Assembly (NCBI RefSeq): GCF_056746865.1
Contig: NZ_CM163382.1
Reading direction: 5' to 3' (one strand)
Length of the DNA: 64,000 nucleotides
The notes under the pieces were generated by a model that searched no databases, had not been told where the DNA came from, and saw nothing but the letters and a program-made list of their open reading frames with translations. The translations under genes and the position numbers were made by a program. Shown here piece by piece: positions 30,387 through 34,511 of this stretch (position 1 is the first letter of the stretch; each line of letters begins with the position of its first letter).

Positions 30387-32797
30387 TTGCACGTTGGTTC
30401 TGGCGCGAATGGCGTTCGCCGTCGCTATTAATTGTCTGGCTGGCGCTAAGCCTGGCGGTGGCCTGCGTGCTGGCGCTGGGCAATATCAGCGATCGCATGG
30501 AGAAGGGCTTAAGCCAACAAAGCCGGGAGTTTATGGCGGGCGATCGGGCGTTGCGCAGTTCGCGCGAAGTGCCGCAAGCATGGCTGGAGGAAGCGCAAAA
30601 GCGCGGCCTGAAAGTCGGCAAGCAGCTGACTTTCGCCACCATGACATTTGCAGGCGACACACCGCAGCTGGCGAACGTTAAAGCGGTGGATGATATCTAC
30701 CCGATGTATGGCGATCTGCAAACCAATCCCCCTGGCCTGAAACCGCAGGCGGGCAGCGTATTGCTGGCCCCACGCCTGATGGCACTGCTTAACCTAAAAA
30801 CGGGCGACACCATTGACGTGGGCGATGCCACCTTGCGGATTGCCGGAGAAGTGATTCAGGAACCGGATTCCGGTTTTAACCCCTTCCAGATGGCTCCGCG
30901 TCTGATGATGAATCTGGCGGATGTCGATAAAACCGGAGCCGTGCAGCCGGGGAGTCGGGTCACCTGGCGCTATAAATTCGGCGGCAACGAGAACCAGCTC
31001 GACAGCTATGAGAAATGGTTGTTACCTCAGCTTAAACCCGAACAACGCTGGTACGGTCTGGAACAGGACGAAGGCGCGCTGGGGCGCTCGATGGAACGCT
31101 CGCAACAGTTCCTGCTGCTTTCGGCGCTTCTGACCTTGCTGCTGGCAGTGGCAGCGGTGGCGGTGGCGATGAATCATTACTGTCGCAGTCGCTACGATCT
31201 TGTGGCGATCCTCAAAACGCTGGGGGCAGGGCGAGCGCAACTGCGTAAGCTAATCGTCGGTCAGTGGTTGATGGTGCTGACGCTTTCAGCCGTTACCGGC
31301 GGGGCGATAGGCCTGTTGTTCGAAAACGTGTTGATGGTGCTGCTCAAGCCCGTTTTGCCTGCTGCACTACCGCCAGCCAGCCTCTGGCCGTGGTTGTGGG
31401 CGCTGGGCACCATGACGGTCATCTCGCTGCTGGTGGGGCTACGACCGTACCGCTTGTTGCTGGCAACCCAGCCTTTACGCGTATTGCGTAATGATGTGGT
31501 CGCGAACGTCTGGCCGCTCAAGTTTTATCTGCCGATTGTCAGTGTGGTGGTTGTGCTGCTGCTCGCCGGATTAATGGGCGGCAGTATGCTGCTCTGGGCG
31601 GTGCTGGCGGGCGCGGTAGTACTGGCTTTGCTGTGCGGTGTGCTGGGCTGGATGCTGCTGAATGTACTTCGCCGCATGACGCTGAAATCGCTACCTCTGC
31701 GCCTGGCGGTTAGCCGCCTGTTACGTCAGCCGTGGTCAACGTTAAGCCAGCTTTCGGCATTTTCGCTCTCCTTTATGCTGCTGGCGCTGTTGCTGGTATT
31801 GCGTGGCGATCTGCTCGACCGCTGGCAACAGCAGCTACCGCCAGAAAGCCCGAACTACTTTTTAATCAACATCGCCACAGAACAGGTAGAACCGCTAAAA
31901 GCGTTCCTCGCGGAACATCAGATAGTCCCGGAATCATTTTATCCGGTGGTGCGGGCGCGACTGACGGCGATTAACGACAAGCCGACAGAAGGCAATGAAG
32001 ATGAGGCGCTTAACCGCGAACTCAATCTTACCTGGCAAAATACGCGGCCCGATCATAATCCGATTGTCGCCGGTAACTGGCCGCCAAAAGCCGATGAAGT
32101 GTCAATGGAAGAGGGGCTGGCGAAACGCTTAAACGTTGCCCTCGGCGATACCGTGACTTTTATGGGCGATACCCAGGAGTTCCGCGCTAAAGTGACCAGC
32201 CTGCGCAAAGTGGACTGGGAAAGTCTGCGGCCTAATTTCTATTTTATTTTCCCTGAAGGGGCATTAGACGGACAACCGCAGAGTTGGCTTACCAGTTTCC
32301 GCTGGGAGAATGGCAACGGCATGTTGACGCAACTCAACCGCCAGTTCCCTACCATTAGCCTGTTAGACATTGGCGCGATTTTAAAACAGGTCGGTCAGGT
32401 GCTGGAGCAGGTAAGTCGGGCGCTGGAAGTGATGGTGGTGCTGGTCACCGCCTGCGGTATGTTGCTGTTGCTGGCACAGGTGCAGGTGGGAATGCGTCAG
32501 CGTCATCAGGAGCTGGTGGTGTGGCGCACACTCGGTGCGGGCAAAAAACTGCTGCGCACGACATTGTGGTGTGAGTTCGCCATGCTCGGGTTTGTATCCG
32601 GCCTGGTGGCCGCAATTGGTGCGGAAACGGCACTGGCGGTACTGCAATCGAAAGTGTTTGATTTCCCGTGGGAGCCAGACTGGCGATTGTGGATTGTTCT
32701 GCCGTGCAGCGGTGCGCTGCTGCTGTCGCTTTGCGGCGGCTGGCTGGGTGCGCGACTGGTTAAGGGTAAGGCGCTATTCAGGCAGTTTGTGGGATGA
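30383..32797 (+). CDS. ybbP: FtsX-like ABC transporter permease YbbP
   Basis: 804 aa, multiple transmembrane segments; start overlaps the ybbA stop. Confidence 0.9.
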   Translation: MIARWFWREWRSPSLLIVWLALSLAVACVLALGNISDRMEKGLSQQSREFMAGDRALRSSREVPQAWLEEAQKRGLKVGKQLTFATMTFAGDTPQLANVKAVDDIYPMYGDLQTNPPGLKPQAGSVLLAPRLMALLNLKTGDTIDVGDATLRIAGEVIQEPDSGFNPFQMAPRLMMNLADVDKTGAVQPGSRVTWRYKFGGNENQLDSYEKWLLPQLKPEQRWYGLEQDEGALGRSMERSQQFLLLSALLTLLLAVAAVAVAMNHYCRSRYDLVAILKTLGAGRAQLRKLIVGQWLMVLTLSAVTGGAIGLLFENVLMVLLKPVLPAALPPASLWPWLWALGTMTVISLLVGLRPYRLLLATQPLRVLRNDVVANVWPLKFYLPIVSVVVVLLLAGLMGGSMLLWAVLAGAVVLALLCGVLGWMLLNVLRRMTLKSLPLRLAVSRLLRQPWSTLSQLSAFSLSFMLLALLLVLRGDLLDRWQQQLPPESPNYFLINIATEQVEPLKAFLAEHQIVPESFYPVVRARLTAINDKPTEGNEDEALNRELNLTWQNTRPDHNPIVAGNWPPKADEVSMEEGLAKRLNVALGDTVTFMGDTQEFRAKVTSLRKVDWESLRPNFYFIFPEGALDGQPQSWLTSFRWENGNGMLTQLNRQFPTISLLDIGAILKQVGQVLEQVSRALEVMVVLVTACGMLLLLAQVQVGMRQRHQELVVWRTLGAGKKLLRTTLWCEFAMLGFVSGLVAAIGAETALAVLQSKVFDFPWEPDWRLWIVLPCSGALLLSLCGGWLGARLVKGKALFRQFVG

Positions 32798-32809
32798 TGA
32801 CAGGCGTTA

Positions 32810-32930
32810 GATTGCCTGATGCGCTACGCTTATCAGGCCTACGAGGATCGTGCAATATATTGATTTTGCAAGATTGTGTAGGCCGGATAAGGCGTTTACG
32901 CCGCATCTGGCATGAACAGTGTGCATTTTG
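32810..32930. repeat. REP/BIME palindromic repeats downstream of ybbP
   Basis: gcctgatgcgctacgcttatcaggcctac and gtaggccggataaggcgtttacgccgcatc motifs. Confidence 0.6.
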
Positions 32931-32942
32931 GCAATAAATATG

Positions 32943-32997
32943 AAACCAACTGTCATGTCGGTTTTTTTAAAGGCCGAAGGTGGTAAACCTTCGGCCT
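32943..32997. terminator. Hairpin pair: imperfect copy of a 30-bp terminator-like element plus a strong adjacent 10-bp stem-loop
   Basis: aaccaactgtcatgtcggttttttt followed by aggccgaagg-tggtaaa-ccttcggcct. Confidence 0.45.
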
Positions 32998-33305
32998 TAG
33001 CTACGTTTCCTCAGTTATTCAATAAACTGACGGATCAGTTCCAGCAGCGCGATTAGCGCCTTAAGAACGATGAGAACTGCCTCTCTCCAAATTAGAGCAC
33101 CAGAATCAGCACCACCTGTATCCTGACCAGGACTTAAAAGTACTTTTCCGCACTGCGGTAATCCCTTGAGGCAGTATCACTACTAGCGTCGGGATTGTAT
33201 CGCCAACATAGCTGTTTGAATATGTAGGCATCCTGACTTATAATTCATTTGCTAGATGAGGACTGTTTCATTTCTGCCCGGAACCACCAAGTCTTGGGCG
33301 GAAAA

Positions 33306-33340
33306 AATAAAAAAACCGACTGTCATGTCGGTTTTTTTAT
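33306..33340. terminator. Bidirectional rho-independent terminator downstream of selU
   Basis: aaaaaaaccgac-tgtcat-gtcggttttttt: stem-loop flanked by an A-run and a T-run. Confidence 0.65.
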
Positions 33341-33401
33341 ATCTGTATTCTGGTGCAACCATTCTGTTCTCACGACAATCGCCGTTTCAGAATACCGCCC
33401 A

Positions 33402-34511
<1,110 letters not shown>

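What the first reader, a model, noticed from the sequence alone, without database searches (positions are those of the whole stretch)
32798..33401. rhs-free ybbP-selU junction with duplicated terminator-like element and a start-less ORF remnant
In K-12, as I recall, the rhsD element lies between ybbP and selU; here only ~600 bp separate them. A ~30-bp hairpin element (ccgactgtcatgtcggttttttt) appears twice (32943-32968 imperfect, 33306-33340 perfect), bracketing ~340 bp. On the minus strand an open frame reads ...GALIWREAVLIVLKALIALLELIRQFIE-stop (about 33015-33176) but has no start codon. This looks like an unoccupied or decayed insertion site and could carry a fragment or small RNA.
Basis: partly seen in the sequence, partly recalled or inferred. 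Interest (0 to 1): 0.4.

Follow-up and report, generated by a model that had tools for sequence, protein, structure and literature searches.

The report
Disarmed DinQ-like toxin–antitoxin locus
The short ybbP–selU spacer is not an empty site: it holds a second, accessory copy of the known E. coli DinQ/AgrB small-toxin/antisense-RNA module, and in this strain a 108-bp deletion has removed the toxin gene's start, leaving the antisense RNA gene intact; this is ordinary gene decay in a known family.

Summary
There is no rhs element, there is a 40-nt repeat (32930-32969 and 33300-33339, 83% identical), and a minus-strand frame is open from 33176 to 33015 with no ATG, GTG or TTG.

The content is a dinQ-like (dql)/AgrB-like type I toxin-antitoxin locus.
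- Rfam AgrB matches 33252-33340(+) at 53.6 bits (gathering score 40). It sits behind a TTGAAT-17-TATAAT promoter, and repeat copy 2 is its terminator.
- The start-less frame is the 3' two-thirds of a DinQ-family peptide gene. RefSeq annotates the identical sequence as "dinQ", with an ATT start.
- Other strains carry 108 more bases at 33075/33076. These supply the Shine-Dalgarno sequence (SD) GGGAG, an ATG and codons 1-7 of a 27-aa peptide, MKTFLDKVLIVLKALIALLELIRQFIE.
- The window allele is therefore a deletion between AGT(C/T)CTCATC microhomologies, and the toxin is most likely a pseudogene.

Among 5426 complete E. coli genomes, 1325 carry the locus and about 140-190 carry the deletion. The core dinQ locus next to gor is in 5422.

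The family is described (Weel-Sneve 2013; Kristiansen 2016; pOXA-48 DqlB 2025), so interest is low. Two annotation caveats apply: I found no LexA box, and the ATT-start coding sequence is doubtful.

The parts
32810..32915 (.). REP/BIME repeat (two inverted REP units) directly after ybbP. It is not part of the toxin-antitoxin module.
   Evidence: Arms 32829-32842 and 32878-32891 are 93% complementary. This stretch (query 14-160) matches a median of 30 places per E. coli genome. Rfam ES036/CssrF matches 32835-32877(-) at 40.3 bits against a gathering score of 37.6.
32930..32969 (+). Copy 1 of the 40-nt repeat, a decayed copy of the AgrB-like terminator. It lies just beyond the 3' end of the toxin gene. 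Its origin is inferred only.
   Evidence: It is 83% identical to 33300-33339 and has the same TGTCAT loop. No agr-like sequence lies upstream of it. On the minus strand it forms an 8-bp stem with a G-U pair.
32970..32998 (-). Terminator hairpin of the dql (dinQ-like) mRNA.
   Evidence: A 12-bp perfect inverted repeat. It aligns with the K-12 dinQ terminator hairpin.
33015..33077 (-). Remnant of the dql toxin coding sequence: codons 8-27 (VLIVLKALIALLELIRQFIE) plus the TAA stop.
   Evidence: Translation. NCBIfam toxin_DinQ NF041472 scores 34.4 bits against a cut-off of 30. RefSeq annotates a 'dinQ' coding sequence at window 33015-33092 in the identical strain 118UI, starting at ATT.
33069..33078 (-). 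Junction of the 108-bp deletion. Microhomology GATGAG(A/G)ACT on the + strand, with the crossover within ACT at 33076-33078.
   Evidence: Alignment with EC6622 and E2348/69, which carry 108 extra bases here.
33069..33088 (-). What remains of the AgrB-like target site in the dql 5'UTR (GGAGAGAGGCAGUUCUCAUC), now fused to codon 8.
   Evidence: Pairing tables and alignment to the K-12 dinQ target region.
33079..33187 (-). Remaining 5' untranslated region of the dql mRNA. The 5' end is inferred.
   Evidence: Homology to the K-12 dinQ 5'UTR. The 330-nt intact transcript folds with z = -6.3, with its 5' end paired to the AgrB target.
33194..33199 (-). Putative -10 box (TACAAT) of the dql promoter. 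Inferred.
   Evidence: Its position aligns with the dinQ promoter/LexA-operator region of K-12. No consensus promoter was called on this strand. No CTG-N10-CAG motif is present.
33216..33244 (+). Sigma-70 promoter of the AgrB-like sRNA: TTGAAT, 17-nt spacer, TATAAT.
   Evidence: Matches 10 of 12 consensus positions and is the only promoter-like site in 32700-33500.
33252..33340 (+). AgrB-like antisense sRNA gene: a 5' single-stranded antisense region, a middle stem-loop and a terminator.
   Evidence: Rfam RF02891 AgrB at 53.6 bits against a gathering score of 40, E = 1e-7, covering the full model. The fold has energy -33.9 kcal/mol, z = -4.9. The middle stem is kept through compensatory changes across 8 homologues.
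33307..33340 (.). Copy 2 of the repeat: a bidirectional intrinsic terminator for the AgrB-like sRNA (+) and probably also for selU (-).
   Evidence: A 14-bp perfect stem with T-runs on both strands. selU stops at 33402.

Best explanation
The ybbP-selU spacer carries an accessory, chromosomal member of the DinQ/AgrB type I toxin-antitoxin family (a 'dql' locus).

In strains with the intact allele:
- A roughly 330-nt mRNA is made on the minus strand. It has a long structured 5'UTR and encodes a 27-aa hydrophobic membrane peptide (MKTFLDKVLIVLKALIALLELIRQFIE) behind a GGGAG Shine-Dalgarno sequence (SD).
- A divergently transcribed AgrB-like sRNA of about 89 nt is made from a near-consensus promoter.
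- The sRNA pairs through its 5' end with the 5'UTR. By analogy with dinQ/agrB and pOXA-48 dqlB/agrB, this blocks toxin translation.

In this window, a 108-bp deletion between two copies of AGT(C/T)CTCATC has removed part of the target, the SD, the ATG and codons 1-7. One copy of the microhomology lies in the AgrB target and the other in codons 7-10. The deletion is a multiple of three, so the 5'UTR reads through into codons 8-27. That gives the 'open frame without a start'. The toxin gene is therefore most likely a pseudogene. The AgrB-like gene, its promoter and its terminator (repeat copy 2) are intact, leaving an orphan antitoxin RNA. Repeat copy 1 is a decayed duplicate of that terminator, sitting beyond the toxin's own terminator.

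Shown here: the homologies, the deletion, the promoter, terminator and RNA structure signals, and the distribution among genomes. Inferred, not shown: transcription, toxicity, antisense repression, loss of translation and the origin of copy 1.
For: - Rfam AgrB above its gathering score at 33252-33340, full model. The same hit occurs in the intact-allele strains and in Escherichia sp. E1V33.
- A 10/12 promoter lies 7 nt upstream.
- The AgrB three-part structure is conserved, with compensatory pairs.
- RefSeq annotates 'dinQ' on the identical sequence.
- NCBIfam toxin_DinQ scores 34.4 bits for the remnant and 40.9 bits for the intact peptide, against a cut-off of 30.
- The coding sequence, 5'UTR and terminator are homologous at DNA level to K-12 dinQ, and the sRNA region to agrA/agrB.
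- The 108-bp segment is present in EC6622 and E2348/69 and contains the SD, ATG and codons 1-7. It has a counterpart in K-12 dinQ, so its absence here is derived.
- In the intact allele the sRNA 5' end and the 5'UTR form 16 contiguous Watson-Crick pairs, followed by a G-U-rich extension.
- The intact mRNA fold sequesters both the target site and the SD, matching the dinQ model (PMC5066626).
- Serratia, Pantoea and K-12 relatives all pair a toxin with one or two AgrB genes and carry a 33-39-nt repeat shared by the 5'UTR and the sRNA.
- The family's function has been shown experimentally for dinQ/agrB (PMC3567139, PMC5066626) and for dqlB/agrB (PMC12365149).
Against: - No expression data were available for this locus.
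- AgrB-like is the most divergent AgrB hit seen: 53.6 bits against 70-108 for the others.
- Its complementarity to the intact target is shorter: 16 contiguous Watson-Crick pairs, or 25 Watson-Crick plus 6 G-U over the 41 positions compared, against 34 Watson-Crick pairs and no G-U for K-12 agrB/dinQ over the same length.
- No LexA box is present, so the 'damage-inducible' behaviour of DinQ proper cannot be assumed.
- The dql promoter did not pass the consensus scan.
- RefSeq treats the remnant as a live coding sequence with an ATT start. Weak translation cannot be excluded from sequence alone.
- The origin of repeat copy 1 is not established.
Confidence: 0.85

Rival explanations
1. The remnant is still a working toxin gene. 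A 25-aa peptide (M/I-WREAVLIVLKALIALLELIRQFIE) would be translated from the ATT codon at 33092-33090, as RefSeq annotates.
For: PGAP (the RefSeq annotation pipeline) calls this coding sequence in 118UI and other deletion-allele genomes. The peptide still passes the NCBIfam DinQ cut-off at 34.4 bits. The hydrophobic core and the ELIR motif are retained.
Against: The frame has no ATG, GTG or TTG. The SD GGGAG of the intact allele lies inside the deleted 108 bp, and no comparable SD precedes the ATT. Some identical-junction genomes carry no coding-sequence annotation at all (H57, H93 and H94), so the call is inconsistent. The ATT aligns with 5'UTR sequence of the intact allele, not with coding sequence.
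Confidence: 0.07
2. The spacer is an empty or decayed rhs (or other mobile-element) insertion site, and the frame is a leftover of that element.
For: K-12 has the rhsD element at this position. The junction is polymorphic: an IS481-family insertion in E2348/69 and a REP-only 240-bp junction in Rb-50.
Against: No similarity between the spacer and the whole K-12 ybbP-selU interval. All non-REP sequence is accounted for by homology to dinQ, agrB and their flanks.
Confidence: 0.02
3. The window allele is the ancestral form, and the 108 bp in other strains is an insertion.
For: Nothing specific, other than that both alleles exist.
Against: The 108 bp carry the SD, start codon and N-terminal codons. 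They align with the corresponding part of K-12 dinQ and are matched in Serratia relatives. The breakpoints sit in a 10-nt microhomology, as expected for a deletion. The intact form is the majority, 1136 of 1325 carriers, and is present in a separate Escherichia species-level lineage.
Confidence: 0.02
4. Repeat copy 1 (32930-32969) is an independent ybbP terminator that resembles the AgrB-like terminator by chance or convergence, not a duplicate of it.
For: It lies downstream of ybbP on the + strand and ends in a run of seven T. No agr-like sequence lies upstream of it. Relatives in Serratia, Pantoea and K-12 have no such second copy.
Against: It matches copy 2 at 33 of 40 positions, including the 6-nt loop TGTCAT. 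That loop differs from the loops of all other AgrB terminators compared. Its stem carries a disrupting A/C mismatch on the + strand.
Confidence: 0.15

Closest known systems
dinQ-agrA/agrB type I toxin-antitoxin locus of E. coli K-12 (gor-arsR spacer; Weel-Sneve 2013 PMC3567139; Kristiansen 2016 PMC5066626)
   Same: - Divergent toxin mRNA and AgrB sRNA.
- A 27-aa peptide with the ALIALLELIR core.
- Homologous 5'UTR, terminator hairpin and sRNA architecture.
- The sRNA 5' end is complementary to the 5'UTR upstream of the SD.
- In the predicted fold the 5' end of the mRNA locks the target site and the SD is sequestered.
   Different: - A different chromosomal site (ybbP-selU), and accessory rather than core: 1325 against 5422 of 5426 genomes.
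- One agr gene instead of two.
- About 69% DNA identity only.
- An ATG rather than a GTG start, and a DqlB-like C-terminus (RQFIE).
- No LexA operator found.
- Shorter perfect complementarity.
- In this window the toxin start is deleted.
dql (dinQ-like) genes, groups dqlA and dqlB, of Enterobacteriaceae chromosomes and plasmids (Kristiansen 2016 PMC5066626); DqlB/agrB addiction module of pOXA-48 (PMC12365149)
   Same: The same family. The C-terminal ELIRQFI(E/D) motif is shared with plasmid DqlB. Each plasmid locus examined also has an AgrB hit. Strains can carry a dql gene together with dinQ, as the paper states and as one search shows for Escherichia sp. E1V33.
   Different: The peptide is 27 aa, not 31. 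It scores below the NCBIfam DqlB cut-off (24.5 against 35) and above the DinQ cut-off. DNA identity to plasmid copies is 67-69% over the longer matches that span most of the module. It is chromosomal, so a plasmid-addiction role does not apply. I could not check whether this exact locus is one of the paper's 14 dql sequences, because its supplement is not held.
tisB/istR-1, zorO/orzO and shoB/ohsC: other E. coli type I systems with divergent, non-overlapping antisense RNAs
   Same: The same layout: the sRNA is encoded 5' of the toxin gene and divergent from it, and pairs with a long 5'UTR (T1TAdb description, PMC8594479).
   Different: No sequence relationship was detected here. The OrzO-P Rfam model scores 24 bits against a gathering score of 60.

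Membership tests
DinQ/AgrB (dql) type I toxin-antitoxin family | A small hydrophobic single-helix peptide with the DinQ signature sequence | tested here: met
   NCBIfam toxin_DinQ NF041472 scores 34.4 bits for the window remnant and 40.9 bits for the intact allele, against a cut-off of 30. The ALIALLELIR core is identical to K-12 DinQ.
DinQ/AgrB (dql) type I toxin-antitoxin family | A translatable toxin ORF with a Shine-Dalgarno sequence and a start codon | tested here: not met
   In the window allele the GGGAG SD, the ATG and codons 1-7 lie in the deleted 108 bp. No ATG, GTG or TTG is in frame. The feature is met in the intact allele of other strains. The window therefore holds a disabled member.
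DinQ/AgrB (dql) type I toxin-antitoxin family | A divergently transcribed AgrB-type sRNA with its own promoter and a Rho-independent terminator | tested here: met
   Rfam RF02891 at 53.6 bits against a gathering score of 40. Promoter TTGAAT-17-TATAAT. A 14-bp terminator stem followed by a T-run. Conserved stem-loops.
DinQ/AgrB (dql) type I toxin-antitoxin family | About 30 nt of complementarity between the sRNA 5' end and the toxin 5'UTR | tested here: inconclusive
   In the intact allele there are 16 contiguous Watson-Crick pairs, then a G-U-rich extension with one mismatch. In the window allele a 20-nt imperfect site remains. This is shorter than in K-12 (34 Watson-Crick pairs). Whether it is enough was not testable.
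DinQ/AgrB (dql) type I toxin-antitoxin family | A structured 5'UTR with mutually exclusive pairings that hide the SD and the target site in the primary transcript | tested here: inconclusive
   A single-sequence fold of the intact 330-nt mRNA pairs the 5' end with the target and places the SD in a hairpin, z = -6.3. No covariation analysis or probing was done.
DinQ proper (the SOS-regulated 'damage-inducible' toxin) | A LexA operator in the promoter | tested here: not met
   No CTG-N10-CAG motif in 32798-33401. The best relaxed match, CTGTTTGAATATGTAG (window 33212-33227), has TAG in place of CAG, and such matches are no more frequent than chance.
DinQ/AgrB (dql) type I toxin-antitoxin family | Peptide toxicity, and rescue by the sRNA | not testable with these tools
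   This needs expression experiments. It has been shown for the relatives dinQ/agrB (PMC3567139) and dqlB/agrB (PMC12365149).
Rhs element or its remnant | Sequence related to an Rhs core, tip or associated genes | tested here: not met
   No similarity between the spacer and the 7.3-kb K-12 rhsD-ylbG interval.
REP/BIME repeats | An imperfect palindromic REP unit present in many copies per genome | tested here: met
   Positions 32810-32915 only. Inverted REP arms and a median of 30 matching places per E. coli genome.

The most novel reading that the evidence does not exclude
After the toxin was lost, the strongly promoted AgrB-like sRNA may have been kept because it acts in trans. It could damp the core dinQ mRNA, or neutralise incoming plasmid-borne dql toxins (an anti-addiction role). 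The locus would then be a domesticated orphan antitoxin rather than debris.

My checks do not favour this. The sRNA pairs with K-12 dinQ less well than AgrA does (22 against 27 Watson-Crick pairs over the same 41 positions), and AgrA does not protect against DinQ toxicity (PMC5066626). Its pairing with three sampled plasmid dql 5'UTRs is within the range of shuffled controls. Only three plasmid types were sampled, and there are no expression data.
Probability: 0.08. Interest if true: 0.45.

Novelty: already known. Interest (0 to 1): 0.15.

Why it matters
The main value is for annotation.
- A sequence that looks like an empty junction is a known type I toxin-antitoxin module whose sRNA gene is not annotated in RefSeq.
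- The toxin in this allele is called as a live 'damage-inducible DinQ' coding sequence from an ATT codon, although its real start is deleted and no LexA box is present.
- The locus gives a natural pair of alleles, intact and toxin-deleted with the sRNA kept. These could be used to ask what a chromosomal dql/AgrB module does and whether orphan antitoxin RNAs are maintained.

Nothing here changes what is understood about the family.

Tried and rejected
- **K-12 comparison.** I compared the spacer with the K-12 ybbP-rhsD-selU interval to look for rhs remnants. There was no similarity.
- **IS481 and ylbG.** I tested whether the IS481-family element of E2348/69 is related to K-12 ylbG, as a link between the two junction types. 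There was no DNA similarity.
- **LexA operators.** None with the strict pattern. Relaxed matches are at chance level.
- **Pfam.** No family matches the peptides.
- **Genome-contig scan.** The scan with the conserved 20-mer GCGCTGCTGGAACTGATCCG returned 70 loci, of which 62 were in unrelated taxa and not followed up. Only 8 Enterobacterales loci were useful.
- **Is copy 1 the end of a second agr gene?** I looked upstream of it and found no agr similarity, only REP sequence. Relatives show no comparable second terminator. Its origin stays open.
- **Rb-50 as the pre-insertion site.** Its 240-bp junction holds only REP units and no terminator copy, so it does not show a target duplication.
- **Cross-pairing with plasmid dql 5'UTRs.** The AgrB-like sRNA pairs no better than shuffled controls.
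- **Kristiansen 2016 supplement.** It is not held, so I could not confirm whether this locus is one of their dqlA sequences.

Full report
**The observation.**
- The window is E. coli. ybbP ends at 32797 and selU (mnmH) runs 33402-34496 on the minus strand, leaving a 604-bp spacer.
- K-12 MG1655 carries rhsD, ybbC, ylbH, ybbD, ylbI and ylbG between the same two genes. BLAST of the spacer against that 15-kb K-12 stretch finds nothing beyond a 13-nt chance word. The junction is therefore rhs-free and unrelated to the K-12 version.
- The duplicated hairpin element is real. It is a 40-nt direct repeat, 32930-32969 and 33300-33339, 83% identical, with a perfect 14-bp stem in copy 2 and a mismatched stem in copy 1.
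- The minus-strand frame is open from 33176 to the TAA at 33017-33015. It has no ATG, GTG or TTG.

**What is there.** Three independent lines give the same answer.
- Rfam's AgrB model (RF02891) matches 33252-33340 on the + strand over its whole length. The score is 53.6 bits against a gathering score of 40.
- In strain 118UI the spacer is 100% identical, and RefSeq annotates a 'damage-inducible type I toxin DinQ' coding sequence at what is window 33015-33092, minus strand.
- The peptide passes the NCBIfam equivalog model toxin_DinQ at 34.4 bits against a cut-off of 30. It falls below the DqlB cut-off.
- At DNA level, the coding sequence (88% over 43 nt), the 5'UTR and the terminator hairpin are homologous to the K-12 dinQ gene in the gor-arsR spacer. 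33250-33350 is homologous to agrA and agrB.

**The sRNA gene looks intact.**
- The only consensus-grade promoter in 32700-33500 is TTGAAT-17-TATAAT at 33216-33244. It ends 7 nt before the Rfam hit.
- The 89-nt RNA folds into a 5' tail, a middle stem-loop and a terminator. The energy is -33.9 kcal/mol, z = -4.9.
- In an alignment with seven AgrA/AgrB homologues from Escherichia, Serratia and Pantoea, the middle stem is kept through compensatory changes.
- Repeat copy 2 is therefore the AgrB-like terminator. With A- and T-runs on both sides, it probably also terminates the convergent selU.

**Why the frame has no start.**
- Strains EC6622 and E2348/69 have 108 additional bases between window positions 33075 and 33076.
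- On the minus strand these bases carry the 3' part of the AgrB target, a stem-loop region, the SD GGGAG, an ATG six bases later, and codons 1-7.
- The intact product is MKTFLDKVLIVLKALIALLELIRQFIE, 27 aa, scoring 40.9 bits on the DinQ model.
- K-12 dinQ has the equivalent segment, so the window allele is a deletion, not the ancestral state.
- The breakpoints lie in a 10-nt microhomology, AGT(C/T)CTCATC on the mRNA strand. One copy is in the AgrB target and the other in codons 7-10.
- Because 108 is a multiple of three, the 5'UTR reads into codon 8. That produces the long open but start-less frame.
- RefSeq's 25-aa coding sequence begins at an ATT that is 5'UTR sequence in the intact allele. 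It has no comparable SD, and some genomes with the same junction carry no coding sequence at all.
- I regard the toxin gene as a pseudogene. I give a small probability that it is weakly translated.

**Mechanism.** The following is inferred from the family.
- For dinQ/agrB, the primary transcript is translationally inert, a 5'-processed form is active, and AgrB pairs with the 5'UTR. That pairing leads to SD sequestration and RNase III cleavage (PMC3567139, PMC5066626).
- For plasmid dqlB/agrB, toxicity, rescue and dependence on pairing were shown with compensatory mutations (PMC12365149).
- In the intact ybbP-selU allele, the AgrB-like 5' end forms 16 contiguous Watson-Crick pairs with the 5'UTR, then a G-U-rich extension with one mismatch.
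- The predicted fold of the 330-nt mRNA pairs its extreme 5' end with that same target and puts the SD in a hairpin, z = -6.3. This matches the 'locking stem' logic of dinQ.
- In the window allele a 20-nt imperfect target survives, fused to codon 8. There is nothing left to repress.
- No LexA box is present, so SOS control should not be assumed for this paralogue.

**Distribution among 5426 complete E. coli genomes.**
- The core dinQ locus is in 5422.
- The ybbP-selU dql locus is in 1325.
- The 108-bp segment is in 1136.
- Roughly 140-190 genomes therefore carry the deletion. 137 match the junction perfectly, and others match with one mismatch.

**Other junction states and relatives.**
- E2348/69 has an IS481-family element inserted between the dql and AgrB-like promoters.
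- Rb-50 has a REP-only 240-bp junction.
- K-12 has the rhs type.
- Escherichia sp. E1V33 has both dinQ and this dql locus.
- The nearest relatives outside Escherichia are chromosomal loci in Serratia, at 75-76% identity. Each has an AgrB gene and a 33-39-nt repeat shared between the 5'UTR and the sRNA.
- 1669 plasmids carry more distant dinQ/dqlB relatives, again with AgrB hits in those examined.
- The peptide's C-terminus (ELIRQFIE) resembles plasmid DqlB more than DinQ.

**Loose ends.**
- Repeat copy 1 shares the TGTCAT loop with copy 2, and no other AgrB terminator compared has that loop. It is most simply a partial duplicate of the local terminator. However, no agr body precedes it and relatives lack it, so its origin and any use as a ybbP terminator remain inferred.
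- The first 115 bp of the spacer are a REP/BIME repeat. It carries an Rfam ES036/CssrF hit.

**Verdict.** The element belongs to a described family: dinQ/agrB, and the dql genes that Kristiansen 2016 notes can coexist with dinQ in one strain. The toxin coding sequence is already annotated in RefSeq. The deletion allele with an orphan AgrB-like gene is a modest new detail. Interest is low.

Noticed in passing
window 32835-32877 (-): Rfam ES036 (CssrF) sRNA model matches above its gathering score (40.3 against 37.6 bits). The hit lies between the two REP units of the BIME after ybbP. A sub-threshold naRNA4 (CssrE) hit lies next to it at 32881-32917. The same ES036 hit occurs in E2348/69.
   Followed up: partly
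window 33015-33092 (-), equal to L001 3218-3295: RefSeq/PGAP calls the truncated toxin as a 25-aa coding sequence starting at ATT and names it 'damage-inducible' DinQ. The real start is deleted and no LexA box is present. The AgrB-like sRNA at 33252-33340 is not annotated in the RefSeq records examined.
   Followed up: yes
L003 3528-4621 (E. coli E2348/69): An IS481-family element is inserted between the dql promoter and the AgrB-like promoter, with window 33210-33216 duplicated at its ends. It sits immediately upstream of the AgrB-like -35 box. RefSeq there annotates a 51-aa N-terminally extended 'dinQ'.
   Followed up: partly
L006 12001-12240 (E. coli Rb-50): A third junction type: ybbP and selU are separated by only 240 bp of REP units, with no rhs element and no dql/AgrB module.
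   Followed up: partly
window 33097-33106 and 33347-33356: A 10-nt perfect inverted repeat (GCACCAGAAT / ATTCTGGTGC) links the dql 5'UTR remnant with the sequence just after the AgrB-like terminator. It is probably chance.
   Followed up: no
L004 1363-1396, 1562-1595, 1793-1826; L013, L042, L008: In every dinQ-family locus examined, the whole agr gene resembles the toxin 5'UTR on the same DNA strand, beyond the 31-34-nt core. This suggests that agr genes arose by duplication of the toxin leader.
   Followed up: no
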